DNA from: Candidatus Latescibacterota bacterium
GTDB lineage: Bacteria > Latescibacterota > UBA2968 > GCA-2709665
DNA: 64,000 nucleotides
Assembly (NCBI GenBank): GCA_965203805.1
Contig: OZ241917.1
Coordinates: 2,912,001-2,976,000 of the forward strand
Direction of reading: 5' to 3'
The notes beneath the pieces were generated by a model, which had not been told where the DNA came from, searched no databases, and saw only the letters and a program-made list of their open reading frames with translations. This document shows, one piece after another, positions 32,713-51,468 of the stretch (the first letter of the stretch is position 1; each line of letters opens with the position of its first letter). A program made the position numbers and the translations under genes.

Positions 32713-32861
32713 GTCACTCCCCCCTTGAGGGGGAGTCGCAGAATCCGATCCGGACCCTGAGCCTGCCTGCATTGAGCTCGGTCCCTGAGCCGCCGCCCTG
32801 AGCCTGCCGAAGGGTTCTCGAAGGATCGAAGGGCCGCCGAAGGCTGATGCGGTGGGGGGAT
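32713..32861. repeat. REP-like palindromic element with nested CCCTGAGC..CGAAGGG units
   Basis: Shares GTCACTCCC..TGAGGGGGAGTCGCAGAA..CGAAGGCTGAT..GGGGGAT with 35659-35747. Confidence 0.8.
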
Positions 32862-35572: not shown

Positions 35573-35588
35573 GGGATACAAACTACCC

Positions 35589-35822
35589 TGGCGCTGCTTC
35601 GCTTTGCTCAGCCGCAACCAAATACGCGCAAGTGAATGAGGGCGCTAACGACGTATTTGTCACTCCCACCATGAGGGGGAGTCGCAGAAGCCGAGCCGAT
35701 CCCTGAGCTTGTCGAAGGGCCGGCGAAGGCTGATACAGCGGGGGGATCGCACCGCCCTTTTTGTTGACTGGCAGCATGAAAAACATGAACCCATTTTGCG
35801 GAGAAGTCTTACTGTAAGACTC
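35589..35822 (+). mobile_element. 234-bp non-autonomous derivative (MITE) of the IS at 42834-44572
   Basis: Both ends match: GCGCtGCTTCGCTtTGCTCAGCCGCAACCAAA and CATTTTGCG..GAAGTCTTACTGTAAGACTC. Confidence 0.85.
35659..35747. repeat. REP-like element inside the MITE
   Basis: Copy of the 32713 family with one CCCTGAGCTTGTCGAAGGG unit (35701-35719). Confidence 0.8.
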
Positions 35823-35987
35823 CAATTGGATTGCGCCAGAAACACCCGGACAGACGATGTCGAAGTTTGGCAATTGCCCTGTTGAATATCGAATCCTGCT
35901 TTCGTAAATTCAATGACTTTTGTTTTCTTCCCTATAGCAGAATCTGCATTGGGCAAGATTCACATCACGACCACGGTTGGAGATAAA

Positions 35988-38186
35988 ATGAGTCTTGAAG
36001 CGACCGATTCTAGGAATAACAATCCGGACCAGACCTCAACTGAAACTGGCCGTGGCGCCCCGGCGGGAAAGCTGAACGTCAGCAACTTCATCTGGAGCAT
36101 TGCCGATGACGTGCTGCGGGATGTTTTCGGCAGGGGCAAATACCGGGATGTCATACTGCCCATGACGGTCATACGCCGTCTCGACTCCGTTCTGGAACCG
36201 ACGAAAGACGCGGTGCTCCAGATGAAAGCCCGGTTGGACGCGGCAGGTGTGACCAACCAGGACGCGGCGTTACGCCAGGCATCCGGCGAGGCCTTTTACA
36301 ACGCGTCACCATTCAGGCTCCGCGATCTGACCTCCCGGGCCAGGCAGCAGCAGTTAAGCGCCGACTTCGAGGCGTACCTTGACGGGTTCTCCCCCAATGT
36401 GCAGGAAGTCATCGACAGGTTCAAGTTTCGCAATCAGATCCCTGAATTGGTGGAGAACGATTTGCTCGGGTTTCTGCTTGAGAAATTCCTGGATCCGGCG
36501 ATCAACCTCAGCCCCAAACCCGTGCTGAACGCTGACGGATCCGTGCGCCTGGAACCGCTCGACAACCACGGAATGGGCACTGTGTTCGAAGAACTGATAC
36601 GGCGTTTCAACGAAGAGAATAACGAGGAAGCCGGCGAGCACTTCACGCCTCGCGACGTCGTACAACTCATGGCGCGGCTGATATTCATACCTGTTGCCGA
36701 CGAGGTCAAATCAGGCACCTACCTGGTATACGACGGCGCTTGCGGCACCGGCGGCATGTTAACCGTCGCCGAAGAGACGCTCACCCGACTTGCCGAGGAA
36801 CACGGCAAAGACGTATCGGTCCATTTGTACGGCCAGGAAATCAACCCCGAAACCTATGCCATCAGCAAGGCCGATCTTATCCTGAAGGGCGAGGGCGTCG
36901 AGGCCGACAACATGCGGTATGGCTCGACCCTATCCGCCGACGCCTTCCCCGCCAACGAATTCGACTTCATGTTGTCCAATCCTCCCTATGGCAAGAGCTG
37001 GAAAGGCGACCTGGAACGCATGGGCGGCAAGTCTGACATTCGGGACCCGCGTTTCATTGTGGACCACGGAGACGATCCGGAGCACTCGCTCATCACCCGT
37101 TCCAGCGACGGTCAGATGATGTTCCTGGCCAATATGCTGAGCAAGATGAAACAGGACACATCACTCGGAAGCCGCATTGCCGAGGTCCACAACGGAAGTT
37201 CCCTTTTCACCGGCGACGCCGGACAGGGTGAGAGCAACATCCGCCGATGGATCATTGAGAACGACTGGCTGGAAGCAATCGTCGCGCTTCCGCTCAACAT
37301 GTTCTACAACACCGGCATCGCCACATACATCTGGGTGTTGTCGAACCGCAAACCCAAGCATCGCCAGGGCAAGGTGCAACTCATAGACGCCACGCAATGG
37401 TCCAAACCGCTACGCAAAAACCTCGGCAATAAAAACTGTGAACTGTCGGACGAAGACATCCAGCGCATCTGCGATGCGTTCCTTGCCTTCGAAGAGACCG
37501 AGCAATCGAAGATATTTCCGAATGAAGCGTTCGGTTACTGGAAAGTCACCGTCGAACGTCCTTTGCGACTGAGTGTCGAGCTGACACCGGAACATCGCCA
37601 GCGCTTCCGCACAACATGCAAAGACGCGAACGAAGAACTACTCGCCGAGGTCATAGATCGCGTGGCGTCGGAACTAGGCGACGAGCCTCACGGTGACTTC
37701 AACCGGTTCCTGGAAGTCGTTGCAAAGTACGCGCCTGAGTGCGGGGTTAAACTGACAACGGGACGCAAGAAGCTGCTTCAGACCACCCTGGCATCACGCG
37801 ACGAGACCGCGGAGCCCGTTATGAAGAGGATCCATCGTTCAGGAAACGTCGAACCCGATTCAATCCACGGCCGTGTTGAAACCACCATCGACGGTAGAAA
37901 ACGCATCGTCGAGTACGAACCCGACAGCGAACTTCGCGATACCGAACAGGTGCCTTTGCTCGAAGAGGACGGTATCGAGGGCTTCCTGCGCCGTGAGGTG
38001 CTGCCTTATGCACGGGACGCCTGGTACGATCCGGCCAGCGTCAAGATCGGATACGAAATCAGCTTCACGCGCTACTTCTACAAGCCCCAACCGATGCGAA
38101 CGCTGGAAGAAATCCGGGCCGATATACTGGCTCTGGAGCGGGAAACCGAGGGACTGTTGGGAGAAATACTCGGACAGCAATGCTAA
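35988..38186 (+). CDS. hsdM: Type I RM methyltransferase subunit
   Basis: FIWSIADDVLRD, AGEHFTPR, YDGACGTGG, NPPY. Confidence 0.95.
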   Translation: MSLEATDSRNNNPDQTSTETGRGAPAGKLNVSNFIWSIADDVLRDVFGRGKYRDVILPMTVIRRLDSVLEPTKDAVLQMKARLDAAGVTNQDAALRQASGEAFYNASPFRLRDLTSRARQQQLSADFEAYLDGFSPNVQEVIDRFKFRNQIPELVENDLLGFLLEKFLDPAINLSPKPVLNADGSVRLEPLDNHGMGTVFEELIRRFNEENNEEAGEHFTPRDVVQLMARLIFIPVADEVKSGTYLVYDGACGTGGMLTVAEETLTRLAEEHGKDVSVHLYGQEINPETYAISKADLILKGEGVEADNMRYGSTLSADAFPANEFDFMLSNPPYGKSWKGDLERMGGKSDIRDPRFIVDHGDDPEHSLITRSSDGQMMFLANMLSKMKQDTSLGSRIAEVHNGSSLFTGDAGQGESNIRRWIIENDWLEAIVALPLNMFYNTGIATYIWVLSNRKPKHRQGKVQLIDATQWSKPLRKNLGNKNCELSDEDIQRICDAFLAFEETEQSKIFPNEAFGYWKVTVERPLRLSVELTPEHRQRFRTTCKDANEELLAEVIDRVASELGDEPHGDFNRFLEVVAKYAPECGVKLTTGRKKLLQTTLASRDETAEPVMKRIHRSGNVEPDSIHGRVETTIDGRKRIVEYEPDSELRDTEQVPLLEEDGIEGFLRREVLPYARDAWYDPASVKIGYEISFTRYFYKPQPMRTLEEIRADILALERETEGLLGEILGQQC

Positions 38187-38723
38187 GAATCGCCTTTATT
38201 CAACGTAGTCCTTTACAAGGACGGGATTATCCCCATATTAAAGGCAGCGTTTAACGTGGCTGACGTCGCGCGCCATAGTCAACGTAGCCTTTACTATAGG
38301 TCGAATAAACGCGCATGCAAATCGTCAGCGTTATACACCAGAAGGCCGGCGCGACCCGGCGAGCAACGGACATCGAGTCCTAGAATAACTCTGCGAACGC
38401 ACGATAATTTCGATGGGCGACATGGAGGATCTGACGGGAACCACGTACACGGAAGCCAACAATGTCCTTAACCGATTGACTCGTTGCTGCAAGTTGCATG
38501 AATTCACCTGTCAGTCGCGGAACCGTAGGTTCATTAATGGGAGCTAAGTTTACCAGTTCCACGAATCCGGCTCGAATGGTGACCAGTGATCGTCGCACAG
38601 CTGATTGATCAACCTCAGAGGGATTTAAGTGTGTGACAGTCGCAGTAAGTCCAGCGGCTCTGGCGGTGGTGCTACAATTGCGCTGACAACGTCGACGACG
38701 ATACTTAATGAGAGGTATTCACA

Positions 38724-39194
38724 ATGAATTTTCTATTATTTCGCTTATTCTCTATCATAGGATTTGTGGCTGTGGAGGTGCCCGTAGAGGCTCAGAGTCC
38801 GACTGATAAGGCCTCGATTTCCGAAAGGGCAATGGAGTCGATCACGTGGTGCCACCCCTTGACCGTGATAGAACTCGTCATCGTGATTCTTGTGTTCGTT
38901 GCAATGCCGATTTATTCGTGGTATGTGAGCAAGAACGTAAAAAGCCCAAACGACCTTCCAAAACGTAAGGGTCTCAATCTGCCCGCAGGATCCGTGAGAA
39001 GCATGATTGCGTTGTTAGTCGTCGGCTCGTTCGTGAATTTCCTGATCTTTGGGGAGTCGGTGTTGGCTACGCATTTCGATAAGATCCTCGCCGCATTCGG
39101 GACGCTAAGCGGTAGCATCATCGGCTTTTATTTTGGTAATCGTAGCGCCGAGCCCCTTCAAACGGGCGACAATTCAATTGAAAAGCCAATGTAA
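38724..39194 (+). CDS. Small membrane protein (signal/TM plus about 3 TM)
   Basis: Hydrophobic segments; GLNLPAGSVRSMIAL and IIGFYFGNRS; GAGG RBS. Confidence 0.7.
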   Translation: MNFLLFRLFSIIGFVAVEVPVEAQSPTDKASISERAMESITWCHPLTVIELVIVILVFVAMPIYSWYVSKNVKSPNDLPKRKGLNLPAGSVRSMIALLVVGSFVNFLIFGESVLATHFDKILAAFGTLSGSIIGFYFGNRSAEPLQTGDNSIEKPM

Positions 39195-39307
39195 TTAAGT
39201 TTGGATCGGATTGCGTTTCCTTACGACGTAGGCCGAGAAACTCGTTGAGAACGACTGAAACGAGATACGATTACACCTGTGGCTTACCCCATCGGAGGAT
39301 GGTCGAA

Positions 39308-39790
39308 ATGAAACTGGACAGGCTCTTCAAAGACTTCAATCTACAAAAGGTGAAATTAAACCTAAAGGTAGTTCAGTTCGAAGTTTCCTTTCAACAAGCA
39401 GACAAGGATGCGGCTTGGGACCTCTATGTGGAAATGCTTACCAGAGTCGTAACTCAGGCACTTCCACGCGATGTCGGAGATGAGCTGGCGGCACTGGAAA
39501 GCGTACACTCCCTTTTTCCAGCAACGCGTGAAATCTTACGACATCACGGGCGGGCATCATTACATTTCAGTAAGGTCGCGGTTCCCGTGCTTAATCAAAT
39601 TATCCGGCCCTTCACCTCAAAGTGGCACAGGCAGAGCTTAGGCGGCGCTTTCGACCGTGAGACCGGACGTGCGGAGTTTCGAAAGGAACTAGAAAGTTTG
39701 CAGGTAGACCTACGCAGATACAACAGGATGCTTGCGGAGATTGCTAATGTGGAAGATTTGACCGACTTGGAAGAATGTAAAGGAGGATAG
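39308..39790 (+). CDS. Hypothetical alpha-helical protein
   Basis: AAWDLYVEMLTR..ALESVHSLF..LNQIIRPFTSKWH; GGAGG RBS; coupled to the TIR gene. Confidence 0.75.
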   Translation: MKLDRLFKDFNLQKVKLNLKVVQFEVSFQQADKDAAWDLYVEMLTRVVTQALPRDVGDELAALESVHSLFPATREILRHHGRASLHFSKVAVPVLNQIIRPFTSKWHRQSLGGAFDRETGRAEFRKELESLQVDLRRYNRMLAEIANVEDLTDLEECKGG

Positions 39791-39792
39791 CA

Positions 39793-40350
39793 ATGCAGAA
39801 AGTTCCACGACACAGGGTATTTGTAAGTTTCCATCAGGAAGACGACTTCTACAAGGATCTGTTCGTACAAATGATGGAAGACGACATTGTGGACGAATCA
39901 GTTGGAGATGGTGATATAGACGATGACAATTTGGCTACCGATACAGTCCGCAGGATTATCCGTGATGGGTACATCAGAGATGCTACGGTCACGGTCGTAC
40001 TTGTCGGACCCTGCACGTGGCAGCGAAAACACGTTGACTGGGAAATAGGTTCTAGCTTGCGAGCTACCAAGCGGAATCCTAGATGTGGCCTGTTGGGGAT
40101 TCTGCTTCCGAATCATCCGAACGCAACTACTGAAAAATACAACTCTCGTTTAATACCGCCGCGTCTTGCTGACAATACTTGTGGAGAAGATCCTTACGCG
40201 CTAATCTACGATTGGACATACAAGACTTCAAGCGTTCGAAATTGGATCCATCGGGCCTTTGTTCGGAGAGATGGTACGCCACCAGACAACAGTAGGGTGC
40301 AGTTCCGATACAACAGAAGTGGATCCTGTTCGACGGGTTGGCAGAGCTAG
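39793..40350 (+). CDS. ThsB-like TIR domain protein (DUF1863/MTH538 type)
   Basis: VFVSFH, TVTVVLVG..TWQRKHVDWEI (catalytic Glu), GLLGILLP, IPPRL. Confidence 0.88.
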   Translation: MQKVPRHRVFVSFHQEDDFYKDLFVQMMEDDIVDESVGDGDIDDDNLATDTVRRIIRDGYIRDATVTVVLVGPCTWQRKHVDWEIGSSLRATKRNPRCGLLGILLPNHPNATTEKYNSRLIPPRLADNTCGEDPYALIYDWTYKTSSVRNWIHRAFVRRDGTPPDNSRVQFRYNRSGSCSTGWQS

Positions 40351-40355
40351 GAGCT

Positions 40356-41660
40356 ATGACCAGCATTCCGCTTCCATACCCAGCCTACAAACCGACAGGC
40401 GTCCCGTGGCTAGGGGACTTACCGGAGCATTGGGAAATGCGCCGGGGTAAGTCCCTCCTGACCCCGGTTGATATTCGTTCCGAGACCGGGGACGAAGAGT
40501 TGTTAACAGTTTCTGCTCAGCAGGGAGTTATCCCAAGGGAATCCACCGACGTAACTATGTTTAAAGCAGAATCATACGTTGGCTACAAGCTATGTTGGCC
40601 GGGAGATCTCGTGATCAACAGTTTGTGGGCTTGGGCACACGGATTAGGCGTTTCCCAGCATTACGGCATCGTTAGTACCGCCTATGGTGTCTACCGCCCG
40701 TTGTCAAGAATACATACTCAATTTATCCATCAGTTCGTCCGCTCAATCCCATTTCAATGGGAGTTGCAAGTACGCTCAAAGGGAATATGGGTATCGCGAC
40801 TTCAATTGACCGACGAGGCATTTCTAAATGCGCCGTTCCCCGTCCCAACCGTCGCCGAACAAGCCGCCATCGTCCGCTATCTTAATCACAGTGAAGAACG
40901 AATCCAGCGCTACATAAGAGCGAAGGAGCGGTTCATCCGGCTCCTTTGGGAAGAGAAGCAGACCGTAATTCACCGCGCCGTGACCCGCGGTCTCGATCCG
41001 AACGTACCCCTCAAACCCTCAGGTGTTGAATGGCTCGGCGACATCCCGGCACATTGGCAGGTTTCCAGGGTGAAGGCTGAATTCGTCTCTTTGGACAATC
41101 GTCGCGTGCCATTGAGCGCGATCGAGCGAGGAGCAATGGAAGAGCGACGATATGACTATTATGGCGCATCTGGTGTAATTGATAAGGTTGAGGACTATAT
41201 TTTTAACGATGAAGTATTGCTAATTGCAGAAGATGGAGCAAATCTCGTTCTTCGCAATTTACCACTTGCCATCATAGCTCGCGGAAAGTTCTGGGTGAAT
41301 AACCACGCACATGTATTAAAGCCTCGACATGGCAACCTTGGCTATTTGGCGGCGGCAATGGAGAGTCTAAACTATACTCCGTGGATATCCGGGGCAGCAC
41401 AACCGAAACTCACACAAGATCGACTCTTAAACATCTCGATCGCCGTGCCACCCATAGTTGAGCAAGATCAAATCATCGCCAAGGCAGAAGAACAGACAAA
41501 CAGACTGACTTTGGCCATCACACGTGCTCGGAGACAAATCGAGTTGATGCAGGAATACCGCACGAAGTTAATTGCGGACGTGGTTACCGGCAAGCTGGAT
41601 GTGCGCGGGACGGAGGTCGATTTGCCCTTTAGATTTACTGAGACGGCACCGGCAGTATAG
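40356..41660 (+). CDS. hsdS: Type I RM specificity subunit
   Basis: YKPTGVPWLGDLPEHW, EQAAIVRYL, KPSGVEWLGDIPAHW, LIADVVTGKLDVR. Confidence 0.95.
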   Translation: MTSIPLPYPAYKPTGVPWLGDLPEHWEMRRGKSLLTPVDIRSETGDEELLTVSAQQGVIPRESTDVTMFKAESYVGYKLCWPGDLVINSLWAWAHGLGVSQHYGIVSTAYGVYRPLSRIHTQFIHQFVRSIPFQWELQVRSKGIWVSRLQLTDEAFLNAPFPVPTVAEQAAIVRYLNHSEERIQRYIRAKERFIRLLWEEKQTVIHRAVTRGLDPNVPLKPSGVEWLGDIPAHWQVSRVKAEFVSLDNRRVPLSAIERGAMEERRYDYYGASGVIDKVEDYIFNDEVLLIAEDGANLVLRNLPLAIIARGKFWVNNHAHVLKPRHGNLGYLAAAMESLNYTPWISGAAQPKLTQDRLLNISIAVPPIVEQDQIIAKAEEQTNRLTLAITRARRQIELMQEYRTKLIADVVTGKLDVRGTEVDLPFRFTETAPAV

Positions 41661-42965
41661 TAATCCGATCGAATCTCGAAAAGTGTCACTATCTACGAAA
41701 ATGGAATGAACAATGCACCGATCTGAGGAATCTCAAGATGACGATTTTATGCGTGCCGTGAAGATCGGGGAAGAAAACGCCGAATGCCTGATGCAGATGC
41801 AGAAGTGGTGCAAGCATGTTGAAATTGAACGAACTTCGGAAGGGCTATATGCGCAATTTACAGGCCTACCTATAGCAAACCACAGCTTGGCGTGTCCGAA
41901 AGTGGAGGGTAAGGCGGAGTCTATGAATCTCCGCTGGATTTTCTCGGATTTTCTTGCAGAATACTGCGCCACCTGTCCTCATCACGCACCAAACGGGGAC
42001 ACTTCGTGGGGTAGGGAGATCATTGACAGGCGCCGGAGAGAAGCCCAAGAGCGCCAGCAAGCAAAAGAGGAGGAAGCCTCCCGAATATCCAGGCTACGCG
42101 AAGAGTTACGATCAATATCCCGTGGCATTAGTGCGGAAACAGAGCCCGAATCGCACCAAGTCCTCGGATATTTAGAAGCGATATTTTCAGAAACCGAAGA
42201 CGAACGAATCGAAGCCTTCGAAAGTTTGAAGCAATCTGCCCGCGTGGGTGCAGATCTCTTTCCGGAGGCTGCTGTCGACTTGGCCTTGACGCTTGCAGGC
42301 ACCAAGGATTTTGCCATTTTCCTGCTTCCTGTCTGTACTGAACTTGCAAAGAAGCGCTCCGATTTAGGCACAAACCTAGGTCGTATAGCAATCGACAACA
42401 TTGAGAAGGGACTATGTCCAGAATTGTCCGCTTCGGTACTTGATGCACTCGGCGACGGCATTGGGTATCCACTTAGCGAACCGTCTATTGAGAAACTGCT
42501 ACTTTCACAGGATCATGAATACCCAATCGGTGGCTGGAACGAAAGTAAACCTGAGTACCCGCATAGCACCGCAGTTATTGTACGCAGTTTTGACGCCGAT
42601 CCGTACGTGGTTCAGAGCATTGTCCGTCGCGAACTGCAGAATGAGAATCCCGCTATACGCTTCGGGTTGTGTGGAGCAGTCAGGCTTATACAAAACCAAC
42701 GCCCCGAGCTAATTCGGAACCTGCTCGATGACTTCCTTCAATCACTCGATCTTCGAGAGGTCGCACGGTCGGGCGACGGGACGCCATCGGATCAAATTAT
42801 CGGCATTCTGCAATCAGCATTTCAATATTCCCCTAGCGCGGCTTCGCTATGCTCAGCCGCAACCAAAGAGGTGGTAGTCAAGAGCAGATTGTTTTTGGGT
42901 ATGTAAAACGGCGTTCATCCCCTATGATGTTGGTACCCACCGCCATCAAGGTAAGGAGGAACGCC

Positions 42966-44528
42966 GTGAAAGACTTCGTGGACCAATATAGTGAAAAAAT
43001 CACGGGCGTGGTATCCTGTTTTGATCGGATTCTGTTCAAGGGGTATCTGCCGCTGGGATTTGGAACTGCGATGGAGCGTTTCATCAGCAATCAAGGTTTG
43101 TTGTTGAAGGATTTCAAGCGTTTTGTAACGACGCATTCCGAAACGATCAAAGCGCACGCGGAGGCGATGGCGAACAAGCGCGAGCGCCCGTTCCTCTATC
43201 TCGACCGCAACAACGTCAGGAAAGAGGATGAAGCGCGACGCATCGCCCAACGAGATGGGATCACACGCGGCCTGGTCTGTGTGTTTCGCGCCGTGGAAGG
43301 CTGTCAGAGTTTCAAGCTGGTGCCGGGGGAAGGAAGGCCTCGCCTGCGCAACGCCCAGCGGAAGTGCCTGTGTTACTACTTCTACTATATCGACCGGGAG
43401 TTCGGGTTGTTGCATGTTCGCATCCAGTCGTGGTTCCCCCTGGTGGTGCAGGTCTGTCTCAATGGCCACGAATACCTGGCGCGCAAGCTTGATAAAAACG
43501 GCATTGCCTATGACAAATCAGACAACGCGTTTCTTTGGATCGACGATGTGGCCCGGGCGCAACGGTTTGCCGATCGTTTTGTCGAGAAAAATTGGCCGCG
43601 CATTCTCTCCGCGCTTGCTGGCAGGGTCAACCCCCTGCTCAAAGACCTGCTTTCGGAAATGGACTATTACTGGGTCGTTGACCAGGCCGAGTTCGCCACC
43701 GACGTGATGTTCCAAAGCCCCCACGCCCTGAAGGTGCTGTATGAAAACCTGCTCAGACATACGGTGCTGTGCTTCTCTCCCGAGGATATCCTGACCTTCC
43801 TGGGCCTGCCTGCCGAGCATAGCCCGGCGCAGGCAGGACGCAAACTCCACGGCAACTTTCAGGGCGAAGTCCTCACGGACTTCAAGAACAAACGCCACCC
43901 CGGCGCACGGGTCAAACACCGGATGTGTGAGAACTGGATTAAAATGTACGACAAACAAGGGTGCGTACTACGCGTCGAGACAGTGATCAACCATCCAAGG
44001 CAGTTCAAGGTCCGCCGCTGGGGCATACGGCAAGGACAACGGATGATGGGCTGGTATCCCATGGCCAAAGGGGTGGCCAACCTCTACCGCTATCGGGAAA
44101 TCTCATTGACGGCCAACCAACACTATCTTCAGGCGCTGTCCGCCGCACCGAACACCGCGAAGAGCCGTCACAGCCTCACCGCACTGGCCCGACCACGCAG
44201 GCACAAGGGGCGTACCTATCGGGGCTTCAACCCTGCCGATACCAACGACCTCGCCCTCTTCACCGCCGTCTTGAAAGGCGAACACGCCCTGATGGGCTTC
44301 CGCAATCAAGACATCCGCAAACACCTCTTCAAACAACCCAGATCCCTCGACCAGCGCCGACGGCAGGCCAACGCCGTCAGCCGACTCCTCAAGCGACTAC
44401 ACGTTCGGGGCCTGATCGCTAAAATCCCTCGTTCCAGAAGATGGCGCGTCACACATTCCGGACACGTTACACTTGCTACTTCCCTGACCCTTTACGACAA
44501 CCACACAACCTCTATGCAAGCAGCGTGA
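42966..44528 (+). CDS. Putative transposase (520 aa) with YDK..RVE motif and C-terminal winged HTH
   Basis: Only long ORF in the element; AAGGAGG RBS; IKMYDKQGCVLRVETVIN; VSRLLKRLHVRGLIAKIPRSRRW. Confidence 0.75.
   Translation: MKDFVDQYSEKITGVVSCFDRILFKGYLPLGFGTAMERFISNQGLLLKDFKRFVTTHSETIKAHAEAMANKRERPFLYLDRNNVRKEDEARRIAQRDGITRGLVCVFRAVEGCQSFKLVPGEGRPRLRNAQRKCLCYYFYYIDREFGLLHVRIQSWFPLVVQVCLNGHEYLARKLDKNGIAYDKSDNAFLWIDDVARAQRFADRFVEKNWPRILSALAGRVNPLLKDLLSEMDYYWVVDQAEFATDVMFQSPHALKVLYENLLRHTVLCFSPEDILTFLGLPAEHSPAQAGRKLHGNFQGEVLTDFKNKRHPGARVKHRMCENWIKMYDKQGCVLRVETVINHPRQFKVRRWGIRQGQRMMGWYPMAKGVANLYRYREISLTANQHYLQALSAAPNTAKSRHSLTALARPRRHKGRTYRGFNPADTNDLALFTAVLKGEHALMGFRNQDIRKHLFKQPRSLDQRRRQANAVSRLLKRLHVRGLIAKIPRSRRWRVTHSGHVTLATSLTLYDNHTTSMQAA
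43805..43837. repeat. 33-bp palindromic element inserted in frame
   Basis: CCTGCCTGC..GCAGGCAGG; relative at 60569-60631. Confidence 0.75.
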
Positions 44529-45917
44529 CCAAACTTCTATGCATTTTGCGTTGAAGTCTTACTGTAAGACTCTAAGGCGGTTGATACGCACCTTGCCCGG
44601 TCAATCTCACGCGTTCGCCCGGCCGTTCAGAAAAACATCGTCAGTGTTTACGAAAGACAGTTCTTAGCTCAGAGGGATCGATGGAAAAAGAACGAAAAAG
44701 AGACTGAACGAAAAGAGGTCTCGGAATCAGAAAATGTGGCGATTCAACGCCTACTGGCTTGGGCAAAAGATGACGCACTAGAAATTGAGATTCGCCGCGA
44801 TTCGGTTCAGGCGTTGAAGTCCGCCTGCACATACGCGACTACGGCCATGCTATGCCATTTTGACTTCCTCTTAGGATATTATGCAATCGTCAGCGGTAAC
44901 GAAAAGCCACCGGATCCACCTCCGAGGATTCTGCATCCCAATCAACCACGGGACACTCAGCTTGATCAACTGCAACTATTCAGGCGCAACCAACTCTGGG
45001 GATTCTTTAAGCAAAACTTGCGTTCATGCCTGCACGAGATTTGCAAAGCAAAGCCGCTAGAGGCGTTCGATTTGGTCTGCGGCTGTTTGGAAGACTCCTC
45101 AGAACCGCTTGCGGACGATTTCAAGGCGCTCTGCGTGTCGCTTCTTGGTGAACTTGGCCGAGACTACAGGCTTCAGCCACGTGTTTTGCCTCATTTGTGG
45201 CGCGCATTGATGGACTACGAATCTGCATGGGTTCGCACCAAAGCCTTACATTCTACTGTCGAGTTGTTTTCATTGTCTTCAACCTCACCACCGGCAAACC
45301 TCGTAGACACAATGATCATCCACCTCCAAGATTCAAAGGTCGGCGTTCACCAAGCTGCCTTGCGAGTTGTGTCTACATTTCCCCGTTGGTTTGACAAGAA
45401 CCAGTCGATCGAAATTCTTAGCTGTCTCGGACGACACCTTGATGTGTACGGCGATGACAAGTACCAACTTGAAAAAATATGCACAGGAATACTGAAAATC
45501 TCTTGTCGTGATAAGCGCCTCAAGCCAGTCGCTTTGCGTATGGTTGAGTCTGTGTATCCGACAGGAGAGGAATTTGTAGATAGAGACATCGCAGAACAGC
45601 TGACTCATTTCTACAAGCCAAGCAATAGATTCGCAGATTCAGTGGCCAAGGATGTCGGTACCTATTTGGCAAGCTATGACCGAGACCGCTACAACCATTA
45701 CGGGTTTTCGGAACGTCTCCGTATGTTCAAGTGGCTGCACGAACTGCCGATAGAAACACTCCAACGTGTCGCCGATAACCTTCTTTCGTCCGCAGAAGAG
45801 ATGGCTGGGAATGATTACTGGGAATCCATGCATTTCGCAAGTCTCTTTCAACATTTGCGGATGGCTGAATACGAGCATGCCGTGTTGGATTCTGTTATAA
45901 AATCTTTACCTGAAGAA

Positions 45918-46206
45918 CACTGCTGTCCAAGAACCGTCGGATTCTCAGAGATAAGGTTCGAAATATAGCTTCAATTGGCGATTTTGGACGGGTTTGACCC
46001 GGATAATGAAAACCAGGTTGCCATCGTCTGCGCAATGCTGTCCAAGAACAAAGTGACTCATCCAGTGGCCATAATCGTGCTGTTCCCGTCTCATTAAGCC
46101 CGTGAAATAGGCACTTTTTGAAACTCACGCTACCTTGGTCGAAGCGCTGCTTCGCGGAAGTGAACCAGATGCTGTCCAAGACAGAAACCGATTTTGGACA
46201 GGTGTG
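45918..46206. mobile_element. 289-bp MITE with imperfect TIRs and 9-bp TSD
   Basis: TSD CCTGAAGAA at 45909-17 and 46207-15; ends CACTGCTGTCCAA / TTGGACAGGTGTG. Confidence 0.88.
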
Positions 46207-46340
46207 CCTGAAGAACCAAGGTTTGAGACGCTCCGTGCGGATTTATATAAGATCGCGATGATCTCTGCAGGAAATGCGTCATTACAGGCTGGTGACAAAA
46301 CGACGGCTGTAGAATTCTTCGAAAAGGGAAGGCATGGAGC

Positions 46341-47837
46341 GTGATACGGGAACCGGAATTGGATCTTAAGCATGCCGCTAATTCAGCCCGGCTTATCTAT
46401 GACATACGCGTGGTTTTGAACTCGAGTACTGAATTCAATAGGGATTGGGCTAAGGAGATCGGTTCTCTGATTGACCGTATTGACGAGATCCTGGCTAAGA
46501 CGCCAATCGCGCATGTCTCATTCGAGTGGAAAGTCATGATTGCTGGGTTTCGTGTCTTATTGGGTCAGGTAAACAGTGTGGCGATTGCCGAGGGCGGCGA
46601 AGGTGACTTGACTATCGAAAGAGAAAAACGTGATGTCCTTTTCGGCGAAATGAAACGATTGGTCACGTCAAATGCCGGCCTATTACCGATCAGCACGAAG
46701 TCATCGTGGCAATCATTGCTCAATGCAGGGACAGTTGATTCCGATAGATTACGCGAATTTCTGTCAATGGTCCCGTTATCCACGTTATATTGGCAAACGA
46801 GGGAATTTGACCTTCCAGATCGGAATGCGTTTAAAGGAACCGAAGCAAAACCGAAACCGATTGTACGGGTTGTTGTATTTCTGGATAATGCTCCGATCGC
46901 AAGCCCACAGCTCTTGCGGCCAAACATTCTATATCCGCTGAAATTTAGAGTCCATGGTGTAACTTGGCCTGTCGACGGGAAGCGCTTACGCCTTGATTTG
47001 ATGACTACACTTCCACAAGAGGAGTTCTCATTGTCCGAATACACTCTCGACGCACCATCTTGTATCAAAAATGGTGAGTACCAGGGTGAATTGGCGGGCT
47101 ATATCAAGTTCAACTCGGCGCAAAGCAGCATGTTGGATGATCTTGCATTCACAGTTCGCGGAGCATTCGATACACCTGACGGGCATCCTATCGAGGTTCC
47201 AGTTATTGGTCACAATGAGTTGCGCCTCAAAATTGTCGATGAAGTCAGTCATCCTTTGATGACGGGAAACCGACGCTTGGACAGGCACGTTGCGGAGCTT
47301 ATTTCAACTCTGATATCAGACTGTCCTGAAGTTCGAGCCGAACTACCTAGCTTGTTGGTAATGCTTCACGCTTTGACCGGCTTGTTGTCTACTTATGCAC
47401 AAGAAGCCGTTTTCAAAGGGAGAAGCGACGTTTCTGAGTCGGAATTCCAGACAAAAGTGACGGGAGATTTGCGAAGACAACTCGGACCAGACGTACAAGA
47501 ACACCCACACCAGGCGGGCGGAATCCCTGATATCAGATTTCGAGGCGTAATTGTTGAGCTAAAGGTCGAAAAAGAAAACGGGAATCGAAATCACATAGCG
47601 AAAAAATACGCGGCCCAGGCAGTTCAATACGCCAGCCCTGAGGCGCGGCAGGTAAGTATTCTCCTTGTACTGGACCTGACGGAAAAGGAAAACCCACCCG
47701 GCGACATTCGCAATGACATTATGCTTACTGATGTACCGACTCATGGGACAGTTGATAGTGCCGAAAAATTCCCGTCCAAGGCGTTTGTGTTCGTGATAAA
47801 CGGGAACATGAAGAACCCATCAAGTTACTCCGCGTAA
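46341..47837 (+). CDS. Hypothetical protein with C-terminal PD-(D/E)xK nuclease-like domain
   Basis: ESEFQ..QEH..GGIPDI..VELKV..QAVQY; GTGA overlap with the upstream gene. Confidence 0.65.
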   Translation: MIREPELDLKHAANSARLIYDIRVVLNSSTEFNRDWAKEIGSLIDRIDEILAKTPIAHVSFEWKVMIAGFRVLLGQVNSVAIAEGGEGDLTIEREKRDVLFGEMKRLVTSNAGLLPISTKSSWQSLLNAGTVDSDRLREFLSMVPLSTLYWQTREFDLPDRNAFKGTEAKPKPIVRVVVFLDNAPIASPQLLRPNILYPLKFRVHGVTWPVDGKRLRLDLMTTLPQEEFSLSEYTLDAPSCIKNGEYQGELAGYIKFNSAQSSMLDDLAFTVRGAFDTPDGHPIEVPVIGHNELRLKIVDEVSHPLMTGNRRLDRHVAELISTLISDCPEVRAELPSLLVMLHALTGLLSTYAQEAVFKGRSDVSESEFQTKVTGDLRRQLGPDVQEHPHQAGGIPDIRFRGVIVELKVEKENGNRNHIAKKYAAQAVQYASPEARQVSILLVLDLTEKENPPGDIRNDIMLTDVPTHGTVDSAEKFPSKAFVFVINGNMKNPSSYSA

Positions 47838-48347
47838 TGGCTTTGGCGAATTCGCGTCAAGGCCAAGGCATTTGGTGCGAATTCGTTGAAATCATCTCTA
47901 TCGTAACAATTGACTGAGATCGCCCCACCGATTCTGCGTGATACGGCATCCGATCGGACACAACGCTTTCGCCACCTATGCAACCAACGCCCGCTCGGCG
48001 ATATCAGGCGATACGGCTAATCAGGAATTGTGCCATTAAACCAGAAATAGACTCAAAAGCATAATTTCAGCACAATTGCGGCATAATGTATTTCATAGAT
48101 ATCTGTTTATTTGGATCTTATTACATTGTTCCTTTTTGACAAAGCATTATGCCTTACGCAAAAAAGTCGCAATTCATATGTTCGGTGAGCGGATCCCTCC
48201 TGATATGATGAAGACCGTGCTCGGTTTAGCCTAACCGCGATTGCCGCGCCAACTGGGAATGCTGACCGATGTCGGAGGTTGCCTGACGCTGGAACCTGAA
48301 TTTCCATTGGCCTGTAATTGACTGAGAAACGTCGGAACTACAATTGA

Positions 48348-48406
48348 ATTCTATAACCCATTAATTTTATTGAAGTTGTTTAATTGACGGGTAATTGACT
48401 GGAAAC
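48348..48406 (+). repeat. 59-bp direct repeat, copy 1
   Basis: 57/59 identical to 50254-50312. Confidence 0.9.
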
Positions 48407-48595
48407 GCCACCTGCCGACCGGCGTCCGCGCGCGATTCACCTCGGATGTGCATACCGAAAAGATACTCGTAAATGAGGCGGTGGCCAATCTGTCAGAGAA
48501 GACCGATCAGCCGCACTCCTGCGCCCCGAGGAAGCCGTGATCATCGGCAGGGCGGAGATCGCCAATGGCTTCGACCTGACGCAACAGGCCGCAAA

Positions 48596-50062
48596 ATGAC
48601 AACCAATAGAAATCGAGACTACCTGCTCGACCTGATAAGAGAATTGCGCAACCTGCCTCATGAGACCGAATGGGTCGAGTTCAAGGTAAACCACCACGAA
48701 CCGAAGACCATAGGTGAGTACGTCTCCGCACTTTCCAACGCGGGAGCCCTGCATGACAAGACTCACGGATACATCCTGTGGGGCGTTGAAGATGGAACTC
48801 ACGACATTGTTGGCACAGACTTTTTTCCGGCTGTTGCGAAGAAGGGCAGCGAACCGCTGGAGACGTGGCTACTCCAGTTATTAAAACCACGCATAGACTT
48901 CCGGTTCCACGAAGTAACGATTGACGGGAAGCGGGTCGTAATTATGGAGATTGATCGTGCCTCCCGGCACCCAGTCGCCTTCGCGGGCGTCGAGTTTATC
49001 CGTATTGGCAGCACAAAGAGAAAACTCAAAGACTATCAGGAAAAGGAACGAGAACTCTGGCGCGTTTTCGACCGGGTGAGTTTCGAAGATGGCATCGCCG
49101 CCGAGCGAGTAAGTGACGGTGACGTTCTGTCAATGATCGACTACCCTGCATACTTCGATTTGCTTGAATTGCCGCTTCCCGATGGTCGTGAAGCGATCCT
49201 TTATGCATTGCAGAGTGACCGACTCATCGCCCCCGGCGAAGCGGGCGGCTTCGACATCACCAATATGGGCGCCATTTTGTTCGCCAGGAACCTTCCCGAC
49301 TTCCCGAATCTGAAGCGCAAAGCCATGCGCGTCATACAGTATCGTGGCAATGGCCGGATAGAGACATTGAGAGAGCAGGAAGGCGTTCGCGGCTATGCGG
49401 TCGGATTCAAAGGAATTATCGACTACATCATGGCGCTCGTGCCCACGAACGAAGTGATTCAACAGGCCTTGCGAAGGACGGTGCCGATGTTTCCCGACCT
49501 GGCCGTTCGAGAACTCGTTGCCAACGCGCTCATCCACCAGGACTTTCTCGTCACGGGTGCGGGACCGATGGTAGAGATCTTCGATGACCGCATTGAGATT
49601 ACGAATCCGGGCGAGCCCCTCGTGGATACGCGACGTTTTTTGGACGCATCACCCAGGTCCCGAAACGAGGCCCTGGCCTCACTGATGCGCCGGGTTCGCA
49701 TCTGCGAGGAACGGGGCAGCGGGATCGACAAGGTTGTCCTTGAAATTGAGTCATACCATCTGCCGGCGCCGCTTTTCGAGGTTCCTCCGGATTCTACTCG
49801 CGCAGTTCTCTTCGCCCACAAGACCCTGGCTGACATGGACGGAGAGGAGCGGATAAGAGCTTGTTACCTCCATGCATGCCTCAAGTACGTGATGCGAGAT
49901 TACCTTACCAATGCATCGCTTCGAGAGAGATTTGGCATCGAAGAGAATAACAAGGCTATCGCCTCTCGCCGCATTCGCGAGGCCATGGACGCTGACATGA
50001 TCAAGCCGTTTGACGAAAATGCCTCCCGAAGAATGATGAAATACGTCCCATTCTGGGCCTGA
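48596..50062 (+). CDS. AlbA_2 (Schlafen-like) plus HATPase_c_4/RecG-C domain protein
   Basis: ETEWVEFK, SALSN, ILWGVED, RELVANALIHQD, ITNPG, EERGSG, YVPFWA. Confidence 0.88.
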   Translation: MTTNRNRDYLLDLIRELRNLPHETEWVEFKVNHHEPKTIGEYVSALSNAGALHDKTHGYILWGVEDGTHDIVGTDFFPAVAKKGSEPLETWLLQLLKPRIDFRFHEVTIDGKRVVIMEIDRASRHPVAFAGVEFIRIGSTKRKLKDYQEKERELWRVFDRVSFEDGIAAERVSDGDVLSMIDYPAYFDLLELPLPDGREAILYALQSDRLIAPGEAGGFDITNMGAILFARNLPDFPNLKRKAMRVIQYRGNGRIETLREQEGVRGYAVGFKGIIDYIMALVPTNEVIQQALRRTVPMFPDLAVRELVANALIHQDFLVTGAGPMVEIFDDRIEITNPGEPLVDTRRFLDASPRSRNEALASLMRRVRICEERGSGIDKVVLEIESYHLPAPLFEVPPDSTRAVLFAHKTLADMDGEERIRACYLHACLKYVMRDYLTNASLRERFGIEENNKAIASRRIREAMDADMIKPFDENASRRMMKYVPFWA

Positions 50063-50253
50063 TCTCAATTGGCATGGATTGATCGACGGCCCGACGTCTC
50101 ACAAACCGCCAGGCATTGTATCAATTGATGAATAGATGGTCGAACGAACCAAAAATGGTCGAATGGGCCGACATATCTTTCTTTTTTAATAAGTTACGTC
50201 ACAGAGGAGCGATGGACGGCCAATTGATCAGGAAACACCCGATAGCCGTTGGT

Positions 50254-50312
50254 ATTCTATAACCCATTAATTTTATTGCATTTGTTTAATTGACGGGTAA
50301 TTGACTGGAAAC
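50254..50312 (+). repeat. 59-bp direct repeat, copy 2
   Basis: 57/59 identical to 48348-48406. Confidence 0.9.
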
Positions 50313-50406
50313 TTCCAATGATCGCCGACGCCACTCCGCTACGTCCGTGCCCCAACCTGCTGTATACGGTCTATGCAATGCGGCATTGAAGATTGGAAGA
50401 ACGGCC

Positions 50407-51468
50407 ATGATCGAATACAAGACCGGCGACATCCTCTCCGAGCAAGCCGAAGCCCTGGTCAATACCGTCAACTGCGTAGGAGCCATGGGACGTGGCATCG
50501 CACTTCAGTTCAAACGAGCCTTTCCTGACAATTTTAAGGCGTACGCAGAGAAATGTAAGCGAAAAGAAATACAACCAGGAAAGGTGTTTGTCTTCGAAAC
50601 TGACGAACTTTTCCATCCACGTTACATCATCAACTTCCCTACCAAACGGCATTGGAAAGGCAAGAGTCGAATGGAGGATATTGAATCCGGCCTCGCGTCT
50701 CTCGCAAAGGAAATCAGGTCACACCACATTCGCTCGATCGCCATTCCCCCGCTTGGCAGTGGGCTGGGTGGGCTAAACTGGCAGGAGGTACGTACGCGTT
50801 TGGTATCCGCTCTGGACGAATTCGAAGATGTCAGAATCGTGATATTTGAACCGGGAGGCGGACCGGCTGATACGCGCCCTAACCGTTCGCGCGATGTGCC
50901 CAGGATGACCGCCGGGCGAGCCGTTTTGGTCGAACTCATGGAACGCTACAGGTCAGGCCTTATGGATCCGTTCGTAACTCTGCTTGAAGTGCATAAGCTT
51001 ATGTATTTTATGCAGGTCGCGGGTGAGCCATTGAGGTTAGAATTCGCCAAAGGCCCTTACGGACCGTATGCAGAAAACCTTCGCCATGTGCTGAACGCAA
51101 TTGAGGGGCATATGGTGAGTGGATATGAAGATGGCGGCGACGCACCCGACAAGCAACTGGAACTGGTTCCGGGCGCGCTTGCGGACGCTCGAGCGTTTCT
51201 TGAGCACAAGGCCGAAACGCGCGCTCGTTTCAATAAGGTTTCGGATCTCGTCGACGGATTCGAGTCGTCGTTCGGTCTTGAACTGCTCACAACGGTTCAC
51301 TGGATCGTCAATGAAAAGAGGGAATTTGTCTTCGACGAGATCGTTAACGACATTTACGCATGGGACAAAAGAAAGAGACAATTCTCAAAGCGTCAGATCG
51401 GGATTGGTTACCAAGTTCTGTGTGAGAAGGGCTGGATTGATCACGTCGACATGCCGGAAACCCTATGA
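50407..51468 (+). CDS. darG: DarG-like macrodomain protein
   Basis: ALVNTVNCVGAMGRGIALQFK, INFPTKRHW, PPLGSGLGGL; C-terminal LEVHKLMYF..GPYGPY..GLELLTTVHW. Confidence 0.8.
   Translation: MIEYKTGDILSEQAEALVNTVNCVGAMGRGIALQFKRAFPDNFKAYAEKCKRKEIQPGKVFVFETDELFHPRYIINFPTKRHWKGKSRMEDIESGLASLAKEIRSHHIRSIAIPPLGSGLGGLNWQEVRTRLVSALDEFEDVRIVIFEPGGGPADTRPNRSRDVPRMTAGRAVLVELMERYRSGLMDPFVTLLEVHKLMYFMQVAGEPLRLEFAKGPYGPYAENLRHVLNAIEGHMVSGYEDGGDAPDKQLELVPGALADARAFLEHKAETRARFNKVSDLVDGFESSFGLELLTTVHWIVNEKREFVFDEIVNDIYAWDKRKRQFSKRQIGIGYQVLCEKGWIDHVDMPETL

What the first reader, a model, noticed from the sequence alone, without database searches (positions are those of the whole stretch)
41713..47837. Hidden two-gene candidate defence system: reconstructed 864-aa Zn-finger/helical-repeat protein plus PD-(D/E)xK nuclease-like protein
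Seen: three ORF-track fragments join into one frame once two insertions are removed. The N-terminus has WCKH..LACP..CATCPHH and the rest looks HEAT/ARM-like. Its stop overlaps the GTG of a 498-aa gene ending in PD..ELK..Q..QY. Location between hsdS and hsdR is typical of defence cargo. Inference: a solenoid sensor or inhibitor paired with a nuclease effector; I do not recognise it as a named system. Automated annotation would miss the intact gene.
Basis: partly seen in the sequence, partly recalled or inferred. Interest (0 to 1): 0.75.

Follow-up and report, generated by a model that had tools for sequence, protein, structure and literature searches.

The report
Broken copy of divergent Olokun defence
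This is a two-gene bacterial anti-virus system, a distant relative of the known Olokun system, whose first gene has been knocked out here by two jumping DNA elements, so it extends a known family rather than revealing a new one.

Summary
Skipping a 1,739-bp transposon-like element and a 289-bp MITE with a 9-bp target duplication gives an 864-aa gene A. It aligns without gaps to intact 864-aa homologs (68-77% identity), and its stop overlaps the GTG of an intact 498-aa gene B. The pair is conserved: B follows A in 11 of 11 testable genomic loci, and four natural A-B fusions exist.

The claim that it is an unnamed system fails. A matches a profile of PADLOC-OloA-scoring proteins at 181 bits over 8-851 (shuffles at most 1.1 bits). 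B matches OloB in 91 of 91 family members and aligns to an OloA-OloB fusion over residues 139-498. It is a deep-branching Olokun clade that the PADLOC OloA model misses.

Likely mechanism, by analogy with PfOlokun: a C4 zinc-finger/HEAT solenoid binds and licenses a PD-(D/E)xK DNase in a 2:2 complex. In this genome the system is most likely dead. Direct comparison with an experimentally tested Olokun and a complex prediction could not be run.

Side lead: the larger insert appears to belong to an unclassified hairpin-ended mobile-element family.

The parts
41713..42835 (+). Gene A (OloA-like), piece 1, residues ~1-374: C4 putative zinc finger, long helix, first helical repeats
   Evidence: tblastn of 5 homologs; 93 homolog hits; model of homolog P0003
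41809..41976 (+). Putative C4 zinc site, C33/C61/C85/C88, around the motif G44-x6-GLPI
   Evidence: Cys conserved in 262, 264, 264 and 264 of 265 full-length family sequences; metal binding is inferred, not tested
42833..44574 (+). Insert 1: 1,739-bp IS-like element (borders slide within CTA) with a 521-aa ORF 42963-44528, hairpins at both ends and no terminal inverted repeat found
   Evidence: homologs on 15 plasmid records; end motifs shared with L016 and with a mini copy at 35586-35825
44575..45917 (+). Gene A, piece 2, residues ~375-822: HEAT/adaptin-like repeats
   Evidence: 75-79% identity to P0002/P0003 over 449 aa; Adaptin_N E=0.0013, below curated cut-off
45918..46206 (.). Insert 2: 289-bp non-coding MITE with imperfect terminal inverted repeats (CAC..CTGTCCAA), flanked by the 9-bp duplication CCTGAAGAA (45909-45917, 46207-46215), with two internal TGCTGTCCAAGA copies besides the terminal one
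   Evidence: (I9, D3)
46216..46344 (+). Gene A, piece 3, last ~42 residues; stop overlaps start of B (GTGA)
   Evidence: 78% identity to P0003 819-864
46341..47837 (+). Gene B (OloB-like), intact, 498 aa: helical domain 9-143, Ig-like beta-sandwich 174-298, helical hairpin 315-354, PD-(D/E)xK-type nuclease ~366-490
   Evidence: model pLDDT 84.7; fold searches; PADLOC OloB 1.2e-7 and LmuA 6.5e-18; hhalign to fusion P0465 99.8%
47436..47630 (+). Predicted active site E366...D397...E406-x-K408...Q426-xxx-Y430
   Evidence: each residue invariant in 104 of 104; reading it as a PD-(D/E)xK + QxxxY site rests on recalled family motifs
35913..54464 (+). Host defence island: type I R-M (hsdM, hsdS, hsdR) carrying two unknown genes, a ThsB-type TIR gene, the A-B pair, an AlbA-RecG-like gene and darG
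   Evidence: Pfam, PADLOC and NCBIfam scans

Best explanation
A and B are a deep-branching member of the Olokun (OloA-OloB) anti-phage family, inactivated in this genome by two mobile-element insertions in A. Shown here: homology of both genes to OloA/OloB models, gene order, tight coupling, fusions, and a conserved nuclease site. Inferred from PfOlokun and from the fusions: B's N-terminal helical domain docks on the C-terminal end of A's HEAT solenoid, two A-B pairs assemble so that two PD-(D/E)xK domains sit side by side, and the complex cuts DNA with low sequence specificity. Most speculative step: A is the sensor and scaffold, with the invariant zinc finger, long helix and solenoid recognising a phage cue (a phage protein or a phage DNA structure) and licensing the nuclease. 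With A split twice, this copy should give no defence.
For: A: profile-profile A1 vs A4 100%, E 8e-50, 796 columns; 40 of the 60 A4 members were scanned and 40 of 40 hit PADLOC OloA, E 1e-17 to 5e-62; window A scores 181 bits on the A4 profile over 8-851, against at most 1.1 bits among 200 shuffles and one reversal; 19 of 55 library representatives found with the A1 profile hit OloA directly at E<=0.01. B: 91 of 91 members hit OloB at E<=0.001; A2 aligns to the B half of P0465 (OloA 2e-19, OloB 4e-34) over 345 columns at 32% identity, including Ig-like and nuclease parts. Pairing: 11 of 11 loci with DNA beyond A's end have B directly after it; fusions P0084, P0265, P0284 and P0465 join A's end to B's start and fall on three separate branches; 31 exact contig lengths are shared between the A and B hit tables (indirect). 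Context: R-M genes within 10 kb in 8 of 15 loci. Literature: PfOlokun is a ~278-kDa 2:2 complex, OloA binds OloB's N-terminal helical domain, and it degrades T7, SECphi17 and SPO1 DNA but not E. coli chromosomal DNA, and only nicks plasmid. The pair here would be ~153 kDa against ~139 kDa per pair there.
Against: No sequence of an experimentally tested Olokun could be obtained, so membership rests on the PADLOC models and on proteins that score against them. The window pieces do not hit OloA directly, and only 1 of 15 close relatives does. B's nuclease scores better against a Lamassu LmuA model (6.5e-18) than against OloB (1.2e-7). B's N-terminal helical domain is barely alignable to the OloB-type fusion (7 bits). 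The defence-neighbour count has no background control and used 61 hand-picked ORFs. No phage test exists for this clade.
Confidence: 0.85

Rival explanations
1. Toxin-antitoxin logic: A is an inhibitor that holds a constitutively active B nuclease; a phage trigger removes A and B kills the cell.
For: Translational coupling and A-before-B order; A has no Walker A motif (1 of 257 proteins of 800-900 aa carries a G-x4-GK[ST] match), so it is not an NTPase activator; PfOlokun was active only at 1 uM in vitro.
Against: A is broken twice while B is intact here, though the inserts may be polar on B. The purified OloAB complex cuts DNA. The Millman preprint's list of untransformable deletions names psyrA, shosA, rmrA and dzbB only (Olokun itself is not named in the held text). 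Covalent fusions recur.
Confidence: 0.15
2. B is a Lamassu LmuA effector and A an unrelated neighbour.
For: Best PADLOC hit of B is LmuA, in 91 of 91 members.
Against: The match covers only B 302-497, the nuclease end. No ORF of 250 aa or more in the window has a G-x4-GK[ST] motif, so there is no SMC/LmuB, and none of 12 island proteins hit LmuB or LmuC. B is fixed to A in 11 of 11 loci and in fusions.
Confidence: 0.03
3. The pair is an accessory of restriction-modification, for example a modification-dependent (type IV-like) nuclease that backs up the R-M system it sits in.
For: R-M genes nearby in 8 of 15 loci and in the window; L002 repeats the hsdS-A-B-hsdR placement.
Against: The R-M type varies (type I, type ISP, Eco57I-like, Mrr-fused), and 7 of 15 loci show none among the ORFs scanned, as expected for cargo in defence islands. 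PfOlokun works without R-M.
Confidence: 0.07
4. The split gene is still functional because the inserts excise or are spliced out (a switch).
For: Insert 1 has a CTA repeat at its borders that would allow scarless loss, and the three pieces carry no other stop or frameshift.
Against: Both inserts would have to be lost; insert 2 is an ordinary MITE with a 9-bp duplication; no Rfam family (no catalogued intron) in 30-60 kb; no full-length homolog found needs such processing.
Confidence: 0.04

Closest known systems
Olokun (OloA adaptin-like + OloB PD-(D/E)xK nuclease); PADLOC PDLC03925/PDLC03926; PfOlokun in bioRxiv 10.1101/2025.07.10.664194
   Same: Two genes in A-B order; ~850-aa HEAT/adaptin-like A homologous over nearly its whole length, with the same four N-terminal cysteines; B with helical N-terminus, then Ig-like and nuclease domains homologous to the OloB-type fusion P0465; similar pair mass.
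   Different: Separate, well-supported branch from the strongly OloA-scoring proteins (branch 0.85, support 1.0); ~19-23% identity in A; missed by the PADLOC OloA model; B's helical domain hardly alignable; found here in Latescibacterota, Chloroflexota, Planctomycetota and other MAGs; this copy is interrupted.
Lamassu LmuA (PADLOC PDLC03853)
   Same: Closely related C-terminal nuclease module (B 302-497, E 6.5e-18).
   Different: No SMC LmuB or LmuC; B's first 300 residues and the partner gene are Olokun-type.
Eukaryotic HEAT solenoids (karyopherin-beta, CAND1, SF3B1, AP adaptins) and Integrator subunits
   Same: A's repeats match them structurally (Foldseek E ~1e-6, TM 0.24-0.33; VIA Z 12-14); B's helical plus beta-sandwich half has Integrator chains as top hits.
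   Different: High rmsd (8-27 A for the long matches), ~10% identity, and Z values in the range generic for repeats; no evidence of specific kinship.

Membership tests
Olokun | First gene homologous to OloA (adaptin/HEAT-like) over its length | tested here: met
   A1 vs A4 100%, 796 columns; window A 181 bits on A4; 40 of 40 scanned A4 members hit OloA. Indirect: via one intermediate profile
Olokun | Detected directly by the PADLOC OloA model | tested here: not met
   No hit for window pieces or P0003; 1 of 15 close relatives hits. A limit of the model rather than a biological defining feature
Olokun | Second gene homologous to OloB with PD-(D/E)xK site | tested here: met
   OloB hit in 91 of 91; hhalign to P0465 99.8% over B 139-498; catalytic residues invariant
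Olokun | OloB N-terminal helical domain | tested here: inconclusive
   Helical domain present in the model, but sequence match to the OloB-type fusion is only 7 bits
Olokun | Conserved adjacent oloA-oloB order | tested here: met
   11 of 11 testable loci; 4 of 15 end at a contig edge
Olokun | PD-(D/E)xK fold by structure comparison | tested here: inconclusive
   Secondary structure fits alpha-beta-beta-beta-alpha-beta, but fold lists were filled by the other two domains; Atlas neighbours DUF8371, DpnII-MboI and PDDEXK_9 at 0.81-0.89 are leads only
Olokun | 2:2 A-B complex | not tested
Olokun | Anti-phage activity and DNA cleavage | not testable with these tools
   Needs bench work
Olokun | Direct homology to an experimentally validated Olokun operon | not tested
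   No such sequence could be retrieved
Lamassu | SMC-family LmuB next to LmuA | tested here: not met
Lamassu | LmuA-like effector domain | tested here: met
   Nuclease module only, B 302-497

The most novel reading that the evidence does not exclude
Olokun is the visible corner of a much larger, modular family of bacterial pattern-recognition receptors. An invariant zinc-finger sensor sits on an adaptin-like solenoid that continues into a helical domain and an Ig-like 'ear' (a trunk-plus-appendage layout like eukaryotic coat adaptors), and the output is exchangeable: the nuclease module is shared with Lamassu, and P0339 keeps everything up to the Ig-like domain but replaces the nuclease by a short tail. 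The A profile finds 767 clusters at 50% identity, many of them unseen by PADLOC.
Probability: 0.2. Interest if true: 0.6.

Novelty: new member of a known kind. Interest (0 to 1): 0.3.

Why it matters
The locus itself is a dead copy of a known kind of system. Its value is practical. It shows that the PADLOC OloA model misses whole clades (1 of 15 close relatives detected), so Olokun prevalence is probably underestimated. It points to testable features not mentioned in the passages I read of the one biochemical study: an invariant four-cysteine site in OloA, an Ig-like domain in OloB, recurring single-chain fusions that suit structure determination, and a nuclease-less variant. How Olokun senses phage is open, and these features give direct mutational tests.

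Tried and rejected
Pfam and NCBIfam gave no curated-level hit for A or B; the weak CATRA-C hit (5 of 91 members, E>=0.026) was not pursued. PHROGs gave nothing meaningful. The PDB sequence search with B's profile hit only designed helical proteins. A mixed alignment of fusion, A and B sequences misaligned and was discarded. Plasmid and phage collections gave no B homolog and no OloA-type gene; the single plasmid hit of the fusion was a 127-aa nuclease remnant without A. The two E. coli Olokun islands in the supplement of PMC10121019 are given by IMG ids that the tools cannot fetch. No Rfam family in 30-60 kb; promoter and terminator counts were at chance level. No darT was found beside darG. 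For insert 1, a Rep_trans relationship suggested by a Y-D-K...R-V-E motif was not supported by hhalign against a RepC piece (probability 0.2%; one of the six aligned rows, L019, was a wrong-frame translation, which weakens this test). The alignment test of the right-end motif in L016 missed it because the slice began inside the motif; the pattern search found it. The ends of L017 did not match. Supplements of the two bioRxiv preprints (which would hold the tested Olokun sequences) and of PMC12629846 could not be seen.
Full report
Observation. The ORF list shows 41713-42906, 42849-44528, 44736-45968 and 46341-47837. A search with the first piece among proteins of 656-2000 aa returned 93 hits, 92 of them close (40-86% identity); 81 of the 93 are 837-873 aa long. 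Five of five such homologs tile the window in three pieces. The gaps between the pieces are mobile elements. Insert 1 is 1,739 bp, with CTA at both borders and its own ORF. Insert 2 is 289 bp, with imperfect terminal inverted repeats and a 9-bp duplication. Without them the frame is open for 864 codons. Read with X at the breaks, it aligns without a gap to two intact 864-aa homologs at 76.5% and 68.4% (2 of 4 compared; the other two differ only at the C-terminus). The stop overlaps B's GTG by 4 nt.

Anatomy of A. The model of the 76%-identical homolog P0003 (pLDDT 86.6, pTM 0.70) has a small alpha/beta domain at ~37-85, a long helix at 98-140 and helical repeats to the end. The repeats match karyopherins, CAND1, SF3B1 and AP adaptins at generic levels. 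C33, C61, C85 and C88 are conserved in 262-264 of 265 full-length family sequences, together with G44, L52 and P53; the HH after the last cysteine is not. A C4 zinc site is inferred; its geometry in the model was not inspected. There is no Walker A motif.

Anatomy of B. B has 221 homologs at E<=0.001, the best 120 listed at 47-100% identity. Its model (pLDDT 84.7) has a helical domain (9-143), an Ig-like sandwich (174-298; Z ~7.5, rmsd ~3 A over ~100 residues to several Ig-like domains), a helical hairpin and an alpha/beta core. E366, D397, E406, K408, Q426, Q429 and Y430 are invariant in 104 of 104 sequences, which fits a PD-(D/E)xK site with a QxxxY helix (motif recalled). Whole-protein fold searches did not list a nuclease, which is inconclusive.

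Pairing and context. The genome scan with A's alignment gave 15 loci. Four end at or just after the matched part of A. In the other 11, B starts overlapping or within 30 nt of A's stop: ten by profile hit (one, L008, cut by the contig end after 84 aa), and L001 where B is interrupted after 51 aa by a DDE transposase. This tests A-to-B linkage only. For the reverse there is only indirect evidence: 31 contig lengths are shared between the 92 A and 118 B table rows. Four natural fusions carry A, then B with its nuclease. Of 61 chosen neighbour ORFs, R-M genes appear in 8 of 15 loci, of mixed types; L002 repeats the window's placement inside a type I R-M operon. No background rate was computed.

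Identity. B hits PADLOC LmuA (6.5e-18) and OloB (1.2e-7), as do 91 of 91 family members. The fusion P0084 hits both OloA (5.7e-9) and OloB, and the distant hit P0093 is a strong OloA match (2.5e-58). P0093's relatives were aligned as A4; all 40 scanned, of 60, hit OloA. A1 and A4 align at 100% probability over 796 columns, and window A scores 181 bits on A4 against at most 1.1 for controls. The exhaustive profile search finds 767 representatives; 19 of 55 and a further 6 of 12 scanned hit OloA directly. P0465, a fusion with OloA 2e-19 and OloB 4e-34, aligns to B over 139-498 at 32%; the first 138 residues match only weakly. In a FastTree of 128 sequences (midpoint root; 15 chosen close relatives, 78 representatives of at least 800 aa, 34 P0093 relatives, and the window gene) the window's clade is separated from the strongly OloA-scoring clade by a long, fully supported branch; that clade was chosen by similarity to P0093, so the split is partly by construction. 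Lamassu is excluded because there is no SMC gene. A direct comparison with a tested Olokun operon was not possible.

What is known. bioRxiv 10.1101/2025.07.10.664194 (parts 1-4 of 6 of the text read, no figures or supplements) reports that PfOlokun forms a ~278-kDa 2:2 complex. In their model the adaptin-like OloA binds OloB's N-terminal helical domain and the nuclease domains lie side by side. The complex degrades T7, SECphi17 and SPO1 DNA, spares E. coli chromosomal DNA, nicks plasmid, and works only at 1 uM; active-site mutants lose the complex. bioRxiv 10.1101/2022.05.11.491447 (passages and section 10) does not contain the word Olokun in the held text; that this study introduced the system is recalled, and consistent with a legend in PMC10121019 (passages and supplement rows). 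PMC12592470 (one passage) says Olokun is not thoroughly characterised. Four searches (listings only) showed no other mechanistic paper in the library.

Mechanism. Most likely A and B form an obligate complex in which B's helical domain caps the end of A's solenoid (inferred from the fusions and the PfOlokun model), two nuclease domains pair, and phage DNA is cut with little sequence specificity. A as sensor and activator is inferred. An antitoxin role is less likely because B is intact while A is broken here, although the inserts may also silence B by polarity. This copy should be non-functional.

Verdict. Real, correctly reconstructed, and a new but broken member of a known family, from a clade that current models miss. 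Interest 0.3.

Side finding. Insert 1 encodes a 521-aa protein with no curated-level Pfam hit and no NCBIfam, PHROG or PDB match of note; Atlas neighbours are unnamed, and plasmid homologs are annotated as hypothetical or ArsR regulators. Its ends are hairpins rather than inverted repeats. Both end motifs recur in a 240-bp ORF-less copy at 35586-35825 and around a 33%-identical homolog in Paraburkholderia, and two further homologs share their right end up to CTAG and then diverge. One literature search (listing; passages of PMC13107129) showed no description of such a family; that is not a thorough check.

Noticed in passing
window 42833-44574 and 35586-35825; L016 1430-3031; L018, L020: IS-like element of a family I could not name: 521-aa ORF without database match, C-terminal winged-helix-like part, Y-D-K...R-V-E motif reminiscent of Rep_trans (recalled; hhalign not significant), hairpin ends, CTA(G) at the right border, and a non-autonomous mini copy upstream of hsdM. 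Possibly more novel than the finding itself.
   Followed up: partly
window 45918-46206: 289-bp MITE with 9-bp target duplication and three TGCTGTCCAAGA copies that may be transposase-binding sites; single copy in the window, none in loci L001-L015; parent IS not identified.
   Followed up: partly
protein P0339 (1,180 aa): A-type solenoid fused to the helical and Ig-like domains of B but without the nuclease; ends in a short S/G/I-rich tail that resembles amyloid-type signalling motifs (recalled, untested). Neighbours unknown.
   Followed up: no
window 50347-51468: darG with no darT beside it, whereas L002 has darT-darG directly after B.
   Followed up: partly
window 38724-40350: Between hsdM and hsdS: a small membrane protein, a 181-aa unknown protein and a ThsB-type TIR gene, co-oriented, without thsA; a possible further small defence module.
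   Followed up: no
window 48348-48406 and 50254-50312: 59-bp direct repeat (97%) flanking the AlbA-RecG-like gene, also weakly matched in L002 18504-18550; may mark a cassette boundary or shared regulatory site.
   Followed up: no
L001 12598-14393: Mirror case: A intact, B interrupted after 51 codons by a DDE (DDE_Tnp_1_4) transposase.
   Followed up: partly
L012 9953-14014; L013 9989-12548: A (and in L012 also B) appears in several frames; either pseudogenes or long-read indel errors.
   Followed up: no
window 32713-32861 and 35659-35747: REP-like palindromic repeats shared between the region beside the vapBC pair and the interior of the mini element.
   Followed up: no
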